IMG/VR virus record: IMGVR_UViG_3300025653_000134
Coordinates: 1 to 33,218 of that record
Source of the DNA: a virus
Lineage: Duplodnaviria > Caudoviricetes
DNA: 33,218 bases
Direction: 5' to 3' (one strand)
Positions 2,790 through 29,039 of this stretch are shown here, in pieces (positions within the stretch are counted from its first letter, which is position 1; every line of letters starts with the position of its first letter). The translations under genes and the position numbers were made by a program. The notes under the pieces were generated by a model. That model was not told where the DNA came from. It saw only the letters and a list, made by a program, of their open reading frames with translations, and made no database searches.

Positions 2790-4019
2790 ATGGCTTTTAT
2801 TATGTCAGCCGCTCTTGGTGGCGCAGCTAAACGTGCTTCAGAAATATTTGAAGAGGAGCGTAAAGAAGCTATTAGCTTGATTGATAGTAGCTTAAAAGAT
2901 TTTGGTAGACTTGGTGTAGCTAAACTTTCAGAGCGCAAGAAAAAACGTAAAGAGTTAGACACAGCAGGGCAGATACTTAAAAATGCAGGTTTCTCTGACG
3001 CGCAGGTCGCTGTAGCTTGGCAGCAAAATAGGCACCAACAGGTTGTAGATCACATAATTCACCAACAAAAGTTGTCAAAAGAAAATCCCGAAATCGCAGC
3101 CATAAAACCAGCAGATATTATTACTCTAGCGGAAGGTCAAGACTTGGGCGGCATGACGTATGATGAATTACTTGACGGTGTAATGGGCAAGGTTTCGTCT
3201 GGCATGACAACTGCAGATGCTATTGCCGATATAGGCGGTACAGGATTGCAAGGTGCGTATATGAAACAACGTGCTGATGCAGCCGCCGCTGCTACAGGTA
3301 TGAACCTTGCTGAATTGAGAGCATTAGCCACAGAAGATTTTGAATATGGTAGTCCTGTTCAGGGTGCTATTAATCTTGTCGATCCTGTAGAATCTGCTAG
3401 GGCTTCAGCAGTTTTGTCTGGCGATGAGGCGGGAATGTTTAGCGGTCCTGCTGCAGACAGTAATCTTAGAAACTATGGTAATCAAATTACCGGAGCAAAA
3501 GGAGTTCCCTCTGCTGGTGTAATGCTCTATGAACACGAAAAAGCAGACCGCAATATTATGGTCAGCACAAAGGTCGCTGAATTAATTGCTAAAAAACAAG
3601 CGGAAGTTAACCGTAATAGACTTAGCGGAACTGAAATACTCGAACTAAAAGCAGAACTGGTATTATGGGCAAAAGATAAGGGTGTCTATGCAGGTGCGCC
3701 GGATCAAAAAGAAGAAGATAAAAGTAATACATCTGATATTCCTATACTTCAAGGTACAGATGATCAAACACTGTTTACAGAAACTCTTGATATGCTTCCT
3801 ACGTTAGAAGGCGATAAAAAGGATGCCTTCATTGATGCTGCATATAATAAAGTATATGAGTACTATAAAGGAAAAGAAGCTACTAACCAAAGGGCCAGAG
3901 AAAAAGCAAATGCTTGGCTTGAAAGAGTTATGACAGAAACAAATAAAACATCTCAAGTTACCACAAATGCTGAAGATGTTCCTGAAGGAATGGGTGCATT
4001 GGTAGGTGCAGGACAGTAG
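2790..4019 (+). CDS. hypothetical protein, putative internal virion protein
   Basis: 409-aa ORF; position in the ejection-protein block. Confidence 0.7.
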   Translation: MAFIMSAALGGAAKRASEIFEEERKEAISLIDSSLKDFGRLGVAKLSERKKKRKELDTAGQILKNAGFSDAQVAVAWQQNRHQQVVDHIIHQQKLSKENPEIAAIKPADIITLAEGQDLGGMTYDELLDGVMGKVSSGMTTADAIADIGGTGLQGAYMKQRADAAAAATGMNLAELRALATEDFEYGSPVQGAINLVDPVESARASAVLSGDEAGMFSGPAADSNLRNYGNQITGAKGVPSAGVMLYEHEKADRNIMVSTKVAELIAKKQAEVNRNRLSGTEILELKAELVLWAKDKGVYAGAPDQKEEDKSNTSDIPILQGTDDQTLFTETLDMLPTLEGDKKDAFIDAAYNKVYEYYKGKEATNQRAREKANAWLERVMTETNKTSQVTTNAEDVPEGMGALVGAGQ

Positions 4020-4027
4020 GTGTAAGT

Positions 4028-7000
4028 ATGTTTAAAGATTATAACAAACGTGATACCCTTACACGTGATGAGTTGGCATCCGATTCTGATTTTATCGCGG
4101 ATGCCACTTATTTTTTGAGAGAGCGTGGCGGTGTAGATGAGTTGATGACTAAGGATGAAGTTATCGATAAGTTTATGGAGCATATGCGTTTTCAAAATAC
4201 AAATGAAATAACAGCCCTGCGTGATCTTGAGTATGCACAGAATGCAGACAGACAAGGTAAGCAGACGTTTGCTCGTTTGATTGATGCCTATGATCGCATC
4301 GATGACTTAGAAGAAGTCGATGACTATGGAAGAATGATGCTGGATTATGCACAAGGCATAGCATCTGCACCGTCTACGTATCTTGGCATCATTACAGGTG
4401 GCACAGGTAAAGCTGCAAGTATTGCTGGCACACAAGCTGCTAAGATTGGCATACGTAAAATTCTATCTTCTGCTATGACTCGTGCGCCATCTGCGCTTAA
4501 AGCGGCAGCAGTAGAAGGTGCTATAGGTACAGGACAAGCACTAGCACAAGAACAGACTCGTGTAGAGACAGGCTTGCAAGAAGATATCCGTGGTGAGCAA
4601 GTAGCCTTAAGCGGTGGTATAGCTGCTCTTACAGGTGGTGGTATTGGATACTTGTCTGGTAGAGCGCAGACAAAAGCAGCATCTAAAGCAGATGAACTAT
4701 ATGAATCTGCGCAGCTTGGTGCAGCTGAGAGGGCTAAAAAAGCTAGCGAAAAAACAAATGAAGTTCTAAGTAAAGCTAGTAAAGAAAGCATCGATGAAGT
4801 TACTGAAACACTCAATGCCCTAAATCCTAATAAAGTTGCAGTGGGCAGACGCCTTAAAAAAGATTTGAATCCAAGTGATACTATGGAAGCTGCACTTGGA
4901 TCAGACGTATTCCGCAATATATCTGCAGCAGCTATTCAAGTTAAAGACAAATTACAGCTAAACAAAGGAGATCGTGTAACTGAGGGTATCACTGATCTAC
5001 TTAGAAAAGGCGAGTTTGAAAAATTAGATGATGTTCGTAGTATTATGCAAGAACACAATCTGACGCTTGATCAATTCTCTCTTATGTATTATGCAGAAAT
5101 GTCAGAAGCAGGTCGCACACTGGTAAGAGCGAGTCAAGTAAAACGTGCTATAGGAGGAAGACCAGCAAAAAATGCTGTTGATCGTATGATTGAAAGCGTA
5201 GATGAATTACACGAAGCTGGCGTATCTGCACTGTCAGGCAAAGAAGCTAAACAACTTACGGAAAATAGAAAATTAATTCAATACGCTCGTGATCTTGACA
5301 GCTTGCGCCTTGGTCTTATGACATCACAGCTTGCAACAACCATGCGTAACAATCTCAACGGAGGTTTTCGTATTGGTATTGACGCAACCACTAGAGCATT
5401 TGATAATATGCTTAACTTTCGTAATCCTCTTGATGGCACATTTGATGTTGCTAAGTATGCTCTTAATCCGTATGAAGCAAGGGTTATTCGGCAAATATAT
5501 GCAGACGAGTTTCCAGAAGAAGCAGCTAGACTTTTTCGAGAGGCAGCAGATTTATCTGCAGCCACAGGGTCAGAGACTGCTATGGCTAAACTAGGGCGCA
5601 AAGCAAACTTCCTTAACACCGCATCTGATAACTTTTTTAAACAAGCAGTCCTTTCTGCATCACTGAAACGTAGACTTGGTGATGAAGGTATTGATTTGTT
5701 TGAACTTATTCGTAAGGGCGAACTTAATACTGTAGATGAAGGTATACTAAAGAAAGCCATGGAAGATGCCTATGACTTTACGTATCAAAACTCTTTCCGT
5801 GGCGATGACTTTTTCAGTAAAAGGACAAGAGAATTTCTACAGGTTCATAGAGATGCGCCATTTCTTATCTCTATGTTTATGCCTTTCCCTAGATTTATTG
5901 CGAATCAAATAAGATTTACATATCAACATGCGCCATTGATAGGTCTGCTTCCACTAGACAGATTAGGTTCAAGGCTACCTGCACGTACTACAAAAGAATA
6001 CCTACAAGAAAAAATGCCAAAACAAATGACAGGTGCATTAATGATGATGGCTGCTTATCAATGGAGAGCGCAGCAAGGTGACGATGTAAATTGGTACGAA
6101 TTTAAAACGAATGATGGCAAGATTGTAGATGGTCGTCCAGTGTACGGTCCCTTTGCACCATTCATGCTTGTTGCTGATGTTATCTATAGACATAAAAATG
6201 GCGCACCTCCTGAGAGCCTTCTCCCAACAATGCGGGATGCAACTCAGGCACTGCTTGGTTCAACTTTTAGAACTGGTATGGGCTTGTACGCTCTTGATCA
6301 GTTGTACCAAGACTTTGGTAATGCAAGTGCAGGTAAAATAATAGGTGAAAGTATTGGTAATTTTTTAAACACCTTTACTCTTCCAGCCTCAATCTTAAAA
6401 GATTTTTACGGTCCTATGGATGAGCGTTACCGTATGATACCTGAAACACGTGATGGCGATTATGGTGTTGATATGTTTGACATCATCTATAACGTAGCTG
6501 CATCACGCGCAGGTAGATCGTTGCCTCCGGGGATTATGGAAAGACCGACACCTGCTCGTTCTCCTTTCCAGACAGGGCCACTACGTTCAGTTAACCCAAT
6601 AGAAAAACAGTTATTTGGTTTTGGTAAAAGAGAAGCAAAGAATGTACTGCAAGCAGAGATGGCGTATCTTGGACTGTCTCCATATGACATATACAAAAGA
6701 CAAAGGAATGAAGTTCTTGATATGTATATGAGGCAGGAACTGTCACGAGAAGAAGGTAAGCTTAACCTCAATGAAACTATGGAGAAGCTGATACGTGATC
6801 CAGAATATAGAAAGAAAAGTGTAGAAGCTAAACGAGTTATGCTAAAGAAAGCCGCTAGTGGTATTATAAGCGAGGCTAAAGATCGTGCTACAACACGCAT
6901 TGAAGTAGAGGCAGCACGTGAAGAATTACCATTTACTACACTGGATGTGACTGCATGGGAGTCAACTCCAAGAAGTATCAAAGCACAAGTAGAGGCAGAG

Positions 7001-19797: not shown

Positions 19798-20567
19798 TAT
19801 ATTGCTCCTAGTTTGTTAAGTTTATCTACGTCTGTCGGGTTGCGATACTTCAAGTCTTGTTCAAGGCGCAACACTTTTACTTGTGGCACATAACCACGCA
19901 ATTGTTTACCAATTGAAATAGTCTTTGGTAATGCGTCAGGGTCTAAAGCAACGATAGCCGTTGAGAACCGTGTGAGATAGTGCTTGTGTTCATCAAGCAG
20001 CGTAGTACCCAGCAATGCGACCCCGACAAATTTCTCATTGCCAACTACAGACGCACTCACACAGTCCTCAACAACCACGGCGACATCACCTTGACCACAG
20101 GTATAGGGGAGACTAGAAGACCCATACCTTCGCCATTTAGGGAGTCGCTTTGTCAACGCCCGACCAGTAGCGTCAACAATCTTGTTGTCATGTACGACAG
20201 GAAATACAATACGGTCTTCCTTTACATCATACATCAAGCCACACTCATCAATGTCAATACCCCACTCAGCACACCATTTAATTAGGTGTCTCTGATTACG
20301 ATGGGCCACAACAAATGGTGGCAATACAAATTCTACTTCCTTTTCTTCCTGTTTCTTTTTCATCTGTCTGATATCACTAGGTGTCATACCAACACGTTTG
20401 CCACCACTGATACCACAAGATGCCTTGTAACAATTCCAAACTACATTACCACCAATATTAGAAATTGTAAAGGTTTTATATCCTCTACATGATGGACAAT
20501 TGATGCGCTTAGATTCACCAATATACAATGTAGTCTCATTTATTATATCATTTAATGTATTATACAT
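19797..20567 (-). CDS. DNA primase (Zn finger plus TOPRIM)
   Basis: CPSC…CYKASC zinc finger; VVEDCVSA and ALDPDA TOPRIM motifs; start moved to the ATG at 20567 (SD GAGG). Confidence 0.88.
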   Translation of the reverse strand: MYNTLNDIINETTLYIGESKRINCPSCRGYKTFTISNIGGNVVWNCYKASCGISGGKRVGMTPSDIRQMKKKQEEKEVEFVLPPFVVAHRNQRHLIKWCAEWGIDIDECGLMYDVKEDRIVFPVVHDNKIVDATGRALTKRLPKWRRYGSSSLPYTCGQGDVAVVVEDCVSASVVGNEKFVGVALLGTTLLDEHKHYLTRFSTAIVALDPDALPKTISIGKQLRGYVPQVKVLRLEQDLKYRNPTDVDKLNKLGAI

Positions 20568-26663: not shown

Positions 26664-27263
26664 TCACTTGATGTTGTGTATTCTGCGCCATGTCACCCAT
26701 GTGATGGCTTGCAATTCAAACGCTTTCAGCGCACGCCCATTAACCCTTGTGCGTTTCGCGGCCTGAACATACTCTGCCTGTAGTGTCCGATATTCCTTGA
26801 CACCAATGTTGGTCTTGTCGTCTGTCAAGCCCACACGTTCCGCATAGGCGATATTACGTGCGTGACCGTCAATTGTGCATGTGTCGTCACCCATGATGTT
26901 ACGATAGAATGAAACAATCTTTTGCCCATTCAGTATAGTAATCACGCCATCATGGTCAGGCATTGCCTCAAGTATTGACCATGCTTTTTCTTTCATTTTG
27001 TGATAGGTACATACCTTCACACTGTCCATACCGTCACCATTTACATTGGCATGGATTAAGTCTTTTGCATTTTGAATATTGCGTTCCCACTTGTTGTTTG
27101 GTGATAGGCTTGCTACCACACCAACGACAATATGCAATGGAACAGATGTATCAAGCGCAATTCGGGTACAGTCACGCAATGCGTCAGCATACCACACAAT
27201 ACCGTCACGCTTTTCTTCCGGTGTTGCCATCTTATATATGGCAAGAATATTTTCAACACTCAT
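26664..27263 (-). CDS. first early gene; putative HhH-GPD-like DNA glycosylase-fold protein (DUF7178-like)
   Basis: GIVWY…ASLSPNNKWERN…KIVSFY…TIDGHA…LQAITW; the IDxH and LQAxxW motifs resemble EndoIII/OGG-type glycosylases. Confidence 0.55.
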   Translation of the reverse strand: MSVENILAIYKMATPEEKRDGIVWYADALRDCTRIALDTSVPLHIVVGVVASLSPNNKWERNIQNAKDLIHANVNGDGMDSVKVCTYHKMKEKAWSILEAMPDHDGVITILNGQKIVSFYRNIMGDDTCTIDGHARNIAYAERVGLTDDKTNIGVKEYRTLQAEYVQAAKRTRVNGRALKAFELQAITWVTWRRIHNIK

Positions 27264-27277
27264 TTTCTAGTCTCCAC

Positions 27278-27660
27278 TCATTGATTGATATAAACCTACC
27301 AAGGTAAGTGGGGTGCTTTTTTTCATGTATATTACCGCACCCCTTAAATAATATACACTACACCTATGTTAAGGGCAAGTCTTACTACGCCCATTCGCTT
27401 CACCATAGGTAGTCCACGAATTGATAGATTTATATCAATCAATGAAAGATGGGGGTTTTGTGCATGGCATACACTACCGCTGCCGATAGTTACACTCTAC
27501 CCCCGTCCTGGCACTCTCCGACCTACTGAATTATACCGACATTTGTTGCGTCTACTGTTATCCTAATCACAAGGTCATCGGGTTTTGGCTTTTGACACCA
27601 CCCCATGCGTTACAGTAGGTCAGGAAACTAGGCGCACTTCTGGTGCATTATGGTCTGTAC
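27278..27660 (-). ncRNA. candidate structured non-coding RNA / early leader RNA
   Basis: Several nested stems, including a 25-bp stem and an H-type pseudoknot, whose mismatches become G-U pairs on the minus strand; no credible ORF. Confidence 0.55.
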
Positions 27661-27804
27661 CACCCACAAGGATTTCATGTGTCCACTTGCCATCGTTCTA
27701 TGCCTATACCTTTTGGGTACTTTTGGGGCTTTTGCTGGTGATGGATACCTAGCATTTTTTGAATATCTGGTTTTTTGGTCCTTTCGTTTTGTTTCAGTCT
27801 CATT

Positions 27805-27850
27805 ACGTTAATTCGGTGGTATTCGGTAGTCAAGTCTTTTTTTATTCGGT
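27805..27850 (-). promoter_or_regulatory. leftward early sigma70-type promoter with A-tract UP element
   Basis: AATAAAAAAAGAC-TTGACT-17 nt-TAACGT; ACCGAAT occurs three times across it. Confidence 0.6.
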
Positions 27851-28505
27851 TTCGAAACTGTATCAATTTGCCGTGGCGTTTAGATATTCAGTTTCTAGAT
27901 GCTTTGGGCTTTATCGGTATCAGATAATCTTTGTAAGACTCTAATCTGTCTTGCCGTTCATCTTGGTTAAATCCTAATCCGAAAGAATAATCAAAAGCAA
28001 CAAAAAAGATTTATAATGTTTTCAATGGGTTAAGATGGTATGCCTGGTTAAGTTTTTGTTTTTATTGATAAAATTATTTTTAAGAAAAATTTTTTATTTT
28101 TTATATATAAAGTATAAAGGGGTTTGTTCATGGTGTGTTCTTAAATGTTAGTCGGTACTTAATTGTTGGGGTATGGCTAAAATTATATGCACCGCCGATA
28201 TAGTTTTGTGTTGTCTTTCATTATTCGATACCTCTATCGACTATGGTATAGGCGTCAATTCATAGGATATCCCTTGCCTATCCACCACCAACCCCTTGAA
28301 AATGCTGCTTTTTTTATGGAATGGTCGCGCAATTTCACCATGCGCTGGCGCGAATAAGATAAAAAGTGTCGCAATCGGGCGCAAATCGCGCGGATCAAAG
28401 GTGGCGGGCAGGGGCCACACCCCAGGTGTACGTACGTATATATGGAGAAATACACAGATTGGGAAAATTAAGTGTTAACCACAAAGGCAACTCATACACA
28501 ACCTA

Positions 28506-28543
28506 TGCACAAGTATTGTGCAACAGTGCCTAAAAAATAGGCA
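28506..28543. promoter_or_regulatory. two tandem 17-bp palindromes (TGC-N11-GCA), NtrC/Fis-family-like operators
   Basis: TGCACAAgtaTTGTGCA (28506-28522) and TGCCTAaaaaaTAGGCA (28527-28543). Confidence 0.5.
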
Positions 28544-28579
28544 ACTTATGATAATTGCTGCGACATATGCAGTTTATGC

Positions 28580-28608
28580 TTGACACGATTTTCGGGGTAT
28601 GGTATAAC
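28580..28608 (+). promoter_or_regulatory. rightward (late-block) sigma70-type promoter
   Basis: TTGACA-17 nt-TATAAC with an extended -10 TG. Confidence 0.75.
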
Positions 28609-28621
28609 ATATATAAAATAA

Positions 28622-28743
28622 AACATTAGATGTTCTACATTAAATAAAGAAACATAGATGTAAGAACATTAGATGTTAAAGACATTAAATGAAAACATTA
28701 AATATAGATAAACTTGTTAAAGACATTTAATGTTACATTCAAT
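28622..28743 (+). repeat. array of 8 degenerate ACATTA(G/A)ATGT quasi-palindromic repeats, about 14-bp period
   Basis: ACAT starts at 28623, 28637, 28652, 28666, 28682, 28695, 28723 and 28735. Confidence 0.8.
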
Positions 28744-28790
28744 ATACCCCATATGGACTAAATTCCGTATTTCCAAAAAAGTAGTTGACA

Positions 28791-29039
28791 ATGGCGAAAA
28801 AATCTGTAAAACTATATACAGACGATGTTCTTGAAGCATTCTATGAAGCAATTAGAACGAACACATTAGATAGATTACACATACCTCATAGCGATGTATT
28901 TTATGTACGTAAGGCAGTAGAAGCCCATTATGGCCGCCCTTTCACATTAGAACACGTAGAGTGGGCAATGCGTATGGAAGGGTGGACAGACGATGCTGAC
29001 AGCAATGGTACTGGTGTGCAGTCTGATGACACGGGATGA
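28791..29039 (+). CDS. hypothetical protein, first gene of the rightward block
   Basis: ORF from ATG 28791 (MAKKSVKLY…). Confidence 0.7.
   Translation: MAKKSVKLYTDDVLEAFYEAIRTNTLDRLHIPHSDVFYVRKAVEAHYGRPFTLEHVEWAMRMEGWTDDADSNGTGVQSDDTG

What the first reader, a model, noticed from the sequence alone, without database searches (positions are those of the whole stretch)
27278..27445. 25-bp RNA stem enclosing a ~118-nt structured cassette directly before the first early gene
Seen: 27278-27302 and 27421-27445 are inverted repeats with two mismatches, and both become G-U pairs on the minus (transcribed) strand: UCAUUGAUUGAUAUAAAUCUAUCAA / UUGGUAGGUUUAUAUCAAUCAAUGA. This points to selection at the RNA level. 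The loop holds a long hairpin (ACUACCUAUG…GGGC-N12-GCCC…CAUAGGUGUAGU) and a pseudoknot. The 3' arm ends 2 nt before the GGAG SD of the glycosylase-like gene. Established: long stems like this are RNase III substrates that release enclosed RNAs, and retron ncRNAs also use flanking inverted repeats. No reverse transcriptase is present in this window. Inference: the phage excises a discrete small RNA immediately after entry, possibly a decoy or antitoxin mimic against host defence, or a partner of the adjacent protein. This is my best candidate for an undescribed system.
Basis: partly seen in the sequence, partly recalled or inferred. Interest (0 to 1): 0.85.

Follow-up and report, generated by a model that had tools for sequence, protein, structure and literature searches.

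The report
Mobile pseudoknotted RNA of marine phages
A marine phage carries a 114-base RNA module with no match in the Rfam catalogue, found in other marine phages usually just ahead of a tryptophan tRNA gene but here clamped inside a 26-base-pair stem, so it is likely cut out of the early transcript as a free RNA and would most plausibly act as a decoy against a host defence protein.

Summary
(1) The inner cassette (27420-27307, minus strand) is a conserved non-coding RNA family. I found 22 distinct variants in marine viral and metagenomic contigs; 99.4% of pair cells are kept and 9 pairs change on both sides, 7 of them in one 12-bp pseudoknot stem. There is no Rfam match and no conserved ORF. 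In 19 of 22 variants it lies 23-24 nt before tRNA-Trp(CCA), and it also occurs in a phage lacking this lineage's polymerase. (2) The outer helix is 26 bp (3 G-U) but surrounds the cassette only in this genome type (1 of 22 loci). Sixteen of 74 relatives place an unrelated 25-26-bp helix at the same Shine-Dalgarno site, around a small ORF instead. The module sits in a promoter-driven leader of other uncatalogued structured RNAs; RNA-library contigs cover that leader in 6 of 6 runs and part of the cassette in 1. Best reading: an accessory RNA released by host nucleases (tRNA processing in relatives, RNase III here), likely a decoy. Excision and function are inferred. Retron and partner-of-adjacent-protein readings are not supported.

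The parts
27805..27833 (-). sigma70-type early promoter (TTGACT-17-TAACGT); predicted start near 27798
   Evidence: Coordinates; -35 and spacing kept in L001, L004, L018, L025; an X2 RNA-library contig ends at 27801. Function inferred; not among the sites listed by the consensus scan.
27505..27798 (-). Leader module A: a second, uncatalogued structured RNA
   Evidence: Shared with L001, L004, L018, L025, L463. Across module A plus hairpin C, 12 of 49 predicted pairs change on both sides among 6 sequences. Covered by RNA-library contigs in 6 of 6 RNA runs laid.
27449..27504 (-). Hairpin C (G-rich/C-rich closing stem), just before the 5' arm
   Evidence: z -3.7; pattern present in 9 of 80 gene loci.
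27421..27446 (-). 5' arm of the 26-bp outer helix; abuts the invariant first base of the cassette
27307..27420 (-). Conserved 114-nt ncRNA cassette (the core finding)
   Evidence: 22 distinct variants; pair counts; the window scores 96.5 bits with model R1, which was built with it.
27361..27411 (-). 5' domain: P1 (27411-27403 with 27368-27361), purine-rich internal loop (27402-27394), P2 (27393-27385 with 27379-27370) and apical loop
   Evidence: Coordinates. P2 has 2 pairs changed on both sides; P1 has none (7 of 8 pairs otherwise unchanged; the A-U pair is broken in 3 of 22).
27310..27358 (-). 3' domain: predicted H-type pseudoknot, P3 12 bp (27358-27347 with 27336-27325), P4 7 bp (27343-27337 with 27316-27310), A-rich loop 27324-27317
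   Evidence: P3: 7 of 12 pairs changed on both sides. P4: 6 of 7 invariant and 1 one-sided change, so the knot is predicted, not shown by covariation.
27277..27302 (-). 3' arm of the outer helix, in the place where most relatives have an AU-rich linker and tRNA-Trp
27272..27275 (-). Shine-Dalgarno GGAG of the first early ORF
   Evidence: Sequence.
26664..27263 (-). DUF7178 / phrog_3842 gene, 199 aa, weak fold match to HhH 8-oxoguanine glycosylases

Best explanation
The 114-nt cassette is a conserved non-coding RNA module that moves between marine phages; it is likely cut out of the early transcript by host nucleases and would then likely act in trans as a stable decoy for a host RNA-binding defence protein. 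Steps: (1) shown by comparison: one structure kept in 22 variants, no conserved ORF, no fixed neighbour gene. (2) Inferred: it has no promoter of its own and is made as part of the early transcript, here from the promoter at 27833-27805. (3) Inferred: in most relatives RNase P maturation of the downstream tRNA-Trp, plus cuts in the AU-rich flanks, frees it. In this genome the tRNA is absent and a 26-bp helix fitted flush to the cassette would let RNase III cut both strands, predicted near 27435 and 27287, giving about 148 nt before trimming. The same cut would free the Shine-Dalgarno region of the first early gene. (4) Inferred: the 3' pseudoknot blocks exonucleases. (5) Weakest step: the target. 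Odds: real structured ncRNA 0.95; released as a discrete RNA 0.6; anti-defence decoy about 0.3.
For: Covariation: 99.4% of 858 cells paired, 9 pairs with double changes, 0 of 500 shuffles as high, slid controls 25-53% paired. The window differs from the consensus of the other 21 at 16 paired positions and keeps every pair. One P3 pair occurs as C-G, A-U, U-A, U-G and G-C. The internal AUG frame is not conserved: 20 to 46 codons, with early stops and frameshifts. Sharp boundaries occur in 14 different upstream contexts (one is a contig end). tRNA-Trp(CCA) lies 23-24 nt downstream in 19 of 22 variants. L025 has the same leader variant and the cassette at the same place, followed by tRNA-Trp where the window has the helix arm. 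The module is present at 130 bits in G082 (96% complete), which lacks this lineage's PolA and has a different DNA polymerase gene nearby. It is absent from the closest relatives, as expected of accessory counter-defence cargo. RNase III accommodates about 22 bp and prefers G-C at the centre with A-U four positions out (PMC6212723, passages); helix pairs 11, 8 and 15 fit. 16 of 74 relatives have an unrelated 25-26-bp helix ending 10-19 nt before the same gene. Precedents: T4 rnaD and rnaC lie next to tRNA-Arg, role unknown (PMC3014915); phage pseudo-ToxI mimicry (PMC5449768).
Against: No RNA end was observed; only assembled contigs were available. The single RNA-library contig touching the cassette (X1, 27349-27507, identical to the window) runs unbroken across the 5' arm, so uncut precursor, or DNA, is present. 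P1 and P4 show no double changes, and the 21 non-window variants are very close (93% mean column identity over all 22), so invariance of loops is weak evidence. Single variants fold only modestly without the pseudoknot (z -1.5 to -2.6). The cassette is single-copy and 114 nt, unlike type III antitoxin arrays (31-62-nt repeats, 1.9-5.6 copies; PMC3401426). Two tRNA-less loci (L118, L442) have neither tRNA nor a spanning helix, so they need a third release route. No host target was identified.
Confidence: 0.35

Rival explanations
1. Cis-acting stability element: the pseudoknot is an exonuclease roadblock that protects the upstream mRNA after the tRNA is cut away, or protects downstream RNA from 5'-3' decay.
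For: In most loci the cassette starts within about 12 nt of a stop codon and precedes a tRNA; a 12-bp plus 7-bp pseudoknot is mechanically stable (established knowledge).
Against: In the window, L025 and L118 it follows other non-coding modules, not a gene. Inside a cleavable helix it could protect nothing in cis. The conserved 5' domain would be unexplained.
Confidence: 0.2
2. A new class of self-cleaving ribozyme that cuts the early transcript near its invariant 5' edge.
For: Invariant first six bases, conserved unpaired purines, a pseudoknot, and a possible 3-bp pairing of the 5' and 3' ends with two one-sided pair-keeping changes. It inserts between unrelated genes and tRNAs, where phage ribozymes are often found (recalled).
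Against: No ribozyme family in Rfam matches even at E up to 10 or up to 3 on eight loci. A self-cleaver inside a 26-bp clamp would leave both products joined.
Confidence: 0.15
3. The outer helix is the functional unit here: an RNase III-controlled gate on translation of the first early gene. The cassette is a passenger with an unrelated role.
For: 16 of 74 relatives have a 25-26-bp helix ending at or in the Shine-Dalgarno region of the same gene, with another sequence and another payload.
Against: Those 16 are related to each other (shared core visible), so they are few independent cases; 49 of 74 have no helix of 16 bp or more. The window's 5' arm abuts the cassette's first base exactly. This reading is compatible with the best explanation.
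Confidence: 0.15
4. A tRNA-binding RNA: the internal and apical loops form an interdigitated double T-loop that docks on tRNA elbows, shielding or sequestering tRNA.
For: The IDTM consensus is AGAGA plus UGxRA (PMC7583486). The internal loop reads AGCGA in 19 of 22 and the apical loop fits UGxRA in 17 of 22. There is tight linkage to tRNA-Trp.
Against: The window's own loop (AGUAA) and 4 variants (UGUCA) break the consensus. The change at that position is matched across the loop as a Watson-Crick pair. No T-box hit in Rfam. The same tRNA-Trp segment occurs without the cassette in 14 of 25 loci.
Confidence: 0.1
5. RNA partner of the adjacent DUF7178 protein.
For: The cassette lies next to this gene, directly or across the tRNA, in 5 of 14 upstream contexts.
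Against: 75 of 80 records with the gene have no cassette (many are fragments). Other carriers have Gp88-family, other or cell-wall hydrolase neighbours.
Confidence: 0.05

Closest known systems
T4 rnaC / rnaD (species 1 and 2 stable RNAs)
   Same: Phage small RNAs of 139 and 119 nt directly beside a tRNA gene, function unknown (PMC3014915 passages), rnaC seen on Northern blot (PMC9697503 passages).
   Different: No similarity: R1 finds nothing over them with filters off (best score in the locus 6.8 bits, elsewhere). rnaC has a T-arm-like hairpin that the cassette lacks. T4's are classed as late and lie 3' of the tRNA; this one is in the early region and 5' of the tRNA.
Type III antitoxins (ToxI, CptI, TenpI) and phage phiTE pseudo-ToxI
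   Same: Processed H-type pseudoknot RNA with an A-rich loop; a phage-encoded mimic is known (PMC5449768).
   Different: Those are tandem repeats of 31-62 nt before a toxin gene (PMC3401426). This is one copy of 114 nt with an extra 5' domain and no toxin gene.
RNase III processing stems (T7 early RNA, rRNA stalks)
   Same: Helix of at least 22 bp just before an early gene; double cut with 2-nt 3' overhangs expected (PMC6212723; T7 seen only as a reference title there, otherwise recalled).
   Different: A long-range helix that would release an enclosed ncRNA, apparently replacing tRNA-guided processing; cleavage untested.
T-box stem I double T-loop
   Same: Similar pentanucleotides in an internal and an apical loop.
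   Different: No Rfam hit, no specifier or antiterminator, no amino-acid gene downstream; the consensus is broken in the window.
Retron msr-msd
   Same: Flanking inverted repeats around a structured RNA, in this genome only.
   Different: No RT; repeat absent from 21 of 22 loci.

Membership tests
Any Rfam 15 family | Score at gathering threshold | tested here: not met
   0 hits in the window; 3 chance hits at E up to 10 in 27200-28900, none on the cassette; only tRNAs at gathering in 20 loci and 8 loci.
Retron ncRNA | Adjacent reverse transcriptase | tested here: not met
   RVT_1 absent from G000 (record 62% complete).
Retron ncRNA | Conserved a1/a2 inverted repeat | tested here: not met
   Spanning helix in 1 of 22 loci.
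Type III antitoxin or mimic | Tandem 31-62-nt repeats | tested here: not met
   Single copy in G000 and one match per record in 11 of 11 carrier records; definition from PMC3401426.
Type III antitoxin or mimic | H-type pseudoknot | tested here: inconclusive
   Stem 1 covaries; stem 2 is 100% pairable but has no double change.
Type III antitoxin or mimic | Neutralises a ToxN/CptN/TenpN toxin | not testable with these tools
   Needs a protection assay.
T-box riboswitch | AGAGA and UGxRA T-loops | tested here: inconclusive
   AGCGA 19 of 22, UGxRA 17 of 22, window fails.
T-box riboswitch | Full leader model and amino-acid gene downstream | tested here: not met
   No Rfam hit; neighbours.
T4 rnaC/rnaD | Adjacent to a phage tRNA gene | tested here: met
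   19 of 22 variants; not in the window itself.
T4 rnaC/rnaD | Sequence or structure homology | tested here: not met
tRNA / tmRNA | ARAGORN detection | tested here: not met
   0 genes in the window.
RNase III substrate | Uninterrupted helix of about 22 bp or more | tested here: met
   26 bp; requirement from PMC6212723.
RNase III substrate | Actual cleavage | not testable with these tools
   Only contigs available.
Self-cleaving ribozyme | Protein-free cleavage | not testable with these tools
   Needs in vitro transcription.
HMO-2011-type phage | [quoted passage not shown] | tested here: inconclusive
   DnaJ hit at residues 290-330, E 0.0025, below the Pfam cut-off; one exact motif and one degenerate; integrase, primase, helicase, PolA and RNR present.
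Fremin et al. 2023 viral candidate structured RNAs | Match to one of the 8,495 DNA-virus models | not testable with these tools
   Alignment archives could not be read; the tables searched had no hit to 6 motifs or 4 assembly prefixes, and the one opened holds no sequences.

The most novel reading that the evidence does not exclude
HMO-2011-type and unrelated marine phages swap cassettes from a toolkit of undescribed structured RNAs in their early leaders and tRNA clusters. This 114-nt RNA is a new functional class (an RNA-only anti-defence decoy or a new ribozyme fold) whose release has been solved twice, by a neighbouring tRNA and by an RNase III clamp.
Probability: 0.25. Interest if true: 0.85.

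Novelty: new variant of a known kind. Interest (0 to 1): 0.58.

Why it matters
HMO-2011-type phages are described as dominant and broadly distributed in the ocean (PMC9038755, abstract), and a full-text search for them together with 'noncoding RNA' returned no paper. The finding gives a compact, covariation-supported RNA family with a natural experiment attached: the same cassette with a tRNA, with a long helix, or with neither, and near-identical phages without it. Phage RNAs beside tRNA genes (T4 rnaC/rnaD) still have no known role. A 114-nt RNA can be tested in vitro at once for self-cleavage, RNase III release and tRNA or protein binding. The surrounding leader holds further uncatalogued RNAs.

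Tried and rejected
No match in INPHARED phages for the leader or, beyond the tRNA, for the L011 version. R1 found nothing in HMO-2011, CRP-1, ICBM2, SIO1 or G001 (0 of 5), so no cultured carrier was found. The GTDB scan gave 2 hits, both chance. Distant homologues with changed stems may therefore be missed. In the metagenome scan, 30 of 31 stretches were the cassette; L447 was chance, truncated L445 was dropped before counting variants, and L433 appears to be the window's own record and is not independent. A small peptide from the internal AUG was rejected. A 5'-end pairing with the internal loop and one with the 3' end are both 100% pairable and mutually exclusive; unresolved. A TYMV-like tRNA mimic (recalled) was considered because P4 resembles the acceptor stem of the neighbouring tRNA, but the three bases after P4 are ACC in only 9 of 22, so it was not adopted. 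Lack of cassette cover in 5 of 6 RNA runs is no evidence: contigs only, and short RNAs are lost in such libraries (own knowledge). Sequence search of PDB with DUF7178 found nothing significant. Earlier scan findings: none returned.

Full report
Setting. The window is a 62%-complete virus record. It carries integrase, primase, helicase, family A polymerase and ribonucleotide reductase on the minus strand. The polymerase has a weak DnaJ-domain hit with one exact and one degenerate CXXCXGXG motif, which makes it HMO-2011-type-like by the criteria in PMC9038755 (passages). No RNA polymerase appeared among the proteins scanned, so host polymerase is inferred. A TTGACT-17-TAACGT promoter at 27833-27805 is kept in relatives. 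It precedes about 535 nt without a credible ORF before the first gene, DUF7178 at 27263-26664.

Observation. The inverted repeat, the G-U pairs, the hairpin, the pseudoknot stems and the Shine-Dalgarno spacing are all as reported. The helix is really 26 bp on the minus strand and 17 on the plus; 500 shuffles reached at most 19.

Layer one, the cassette. Pattern scans of viral and metagenome contigs and a profile search of the fetched loci gave 22 distinct full-length variants of 27420-27307. For a structure of 39 pairs, 99.4% of cells pair and 9 pairs change on both sides. None of 500 shuffles was as high, and slid controls paired 25-53%. The signal is uneven: 7 double changes in the 12-bp P3, 2 in P2, none in P1 or P4. 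The pseudoknot is therefore predicted from perfect pairability, not shown by covariation. The shuffle control ignores relatedness and the tree is poorly resolved. However, one pair takes five forms, and the window, at most 82% identical to any other variant, keeps every pair across 16 substitutions in stems. The internal AUG frame is not conserved.

Context of the cassette. In 19 of 22 variants tRNA-Trp(CCA) starts 23-24 nt after P4, across an AU-rich linker. The exceptions are the window type, L118 and L442. Upstream there are 14 different contexts: stop codons of DUF7178, Gp88-family or other early genes, or other RNA modules. Four carrier records have the window's polymerase at 72-77% identity. 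G082, 96% complete, has none and encodes another polymerase, so the cassette crosses phage groups. Only 5 of 80 records with DUF7178 carry it, and the 96%-identical L001/L002 do not. The tRNA segment also occurs without the cassette in 14 of 25 loci.

Layer two, the helix. A helix spanning the cassette exists only in the window type (L435 and L451 repeat the same arms); the other 21 loci give 10-14 bp. Yet 25 of 74 relatives with enough upstream DNA have a helix of 16 bp or more before DUF7178, against 8 of 500 shuffles. Sixteen have 25-26 bp with 3-6 G-U pairs, ending 10-19 nt before the gene, and are shorter (10-18 bp) on the other strand. Their arms are unrelated to the window's and enclose a small ORF (read; for L007). 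They are related to one another, so they count as few events. L025 shows the swap most clearly: same leader variant, cassette at the same place, then tRNA-Trp where the window has its 3' arm.

Expression. Seventeen RNA runs hold 5-30% of the words of 26700-28300. Of six laid, all have contigs on the leader at about 27540-27800. The X2 contig stops at the predicted start; the X3 contig goes on to 27932. One contig, in X1, covers 27349-27507 with no differences and crosses the 5' arm. This shows presence in RNA libraries, not strand, ends or level, and DNA carry-over is not excluded. It is compatible with precursor and gives no sign of cleavage.

Mechanism. Without its own promoter, the RNA either acts in cis or is cut out. 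A tRNA neighbour in most genomes and, in this one, an RNase III-sized helix flush with its first base both point to release. The E. coli preferences (PMC6212723, passages) place a cut near 27435 and 27287, giving about 148 nt. A patchy, horizontally moving, highly conserved RNA in the first transcript fits counter-defence cargo, and phage RNA mimicry has a precedent (PMC5449768, passages). I put the whole chain at 0.35. Rivals are a cis roadblock (0.2), a ribozyme (0.15), a translational gate with a passenger (0.15), a tRNA binder (0.1) and a protein partner (0.05).

Known or new. There is no Rfam family, no match in INPHARED and no true GTDB hit. It is not a retron, T-box, type III array or rnaC/rnaD homologue by the tests listed. 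It works most like T4 rnaC/rnaD in placement. Searches behind the claim of no description: 0 papers; listings only. For Fremin 2023 (PMC10690425) I read part 1 of 5 of the text and searched four supplementary files; its alignment archives could not be read, so the motif may already be an unnamed candidate there. PMC7583486, PMC3014915, PMC9697503, PMC3401426 and PMC12409349 were seen as passages only. The resemblances to TYMV tRNA-like structures, CptI and ribozyme contexts are recalled, not tested.

Verdict. A real, apparently uncatalogued phage ncRNA family with a genome-specific processing stem. Interest 0.58.

Noticed in passing
window 27449-27798 (-); L001, L004, L018, L025, L461/L463: Leader module A with hairpin C is a second uncatalogued structured RNA with covariation (12 of 49 pairs), and is the part most consistently covered in RNA runs (6 of 6). 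L461/L463 carry a duplicated two-hairpin subunit. An antitermination element of the HK022 put kind is a recalled, untested possibility. May deserve its own study.
   Followed up: partly
L003, L009, L010, L016, L058, L061, L069, L072, upstream of DUF7178: A different conserved non-coding leader motif (motif B) in 8 of 80 loci; no Rfam hit in the four of them scanned.
   Followed up: no
L007 about 3810-4060, L011, L094, L121, L364, L439, downstream of tRNA-Trp: Arrays of several further small conserved non-coding modules follow the tRNA, shuffled between phages; nothing but tRNA at Rfam gathering score.
   Followed up: partly
L007:4000, L014:2646, L118, L364:688 and 719: Small (about 27-nt) H-type pseudoknot-like motif; two tandem copies occupy the slot before tRNA-Trp in L364 and one lies directly before the cassette in L118. 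Size and tandem form recall type III antitoxin repeats (recalled); a better decoy candidate than the cassette by that criterion.
   Followed up: partly
window 19954-20078 (-), inside the primase gene: An uninterrupted 23-bp RNA helix within coding sequence, part of a longer predicted stem; possible RNase III site or recoding signal.
   Followed up: no
L007, L016-L023, L027, L041-L043, L054-L080, upstream of DUF7178: Long-range 17-26-bp helices enclose a small basic first ORF; in several the 3' arm can also pair locally, and the 5' arm overlaps a TTGAC promoter's -10 region, suggesting a switch.
   Followed up: partly
tRNA-Trp in L007:3737-3810, L011:3736-3809, L025:2905-2978: The phage tRNA-Trp has A at position 8 and U where A14 is usual (alignment); in several loci its acceptor stem repeats the cassette's P4 sequence.
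   Followed up: no
L428:768-1367 (-): Another 199-aa early protein precedes the cassette in several phages; no Pfam or PHROG hit, weak profile match to DUF7178 (E 0.23), with an HhH-like motif by eye.
   Followed up: partly
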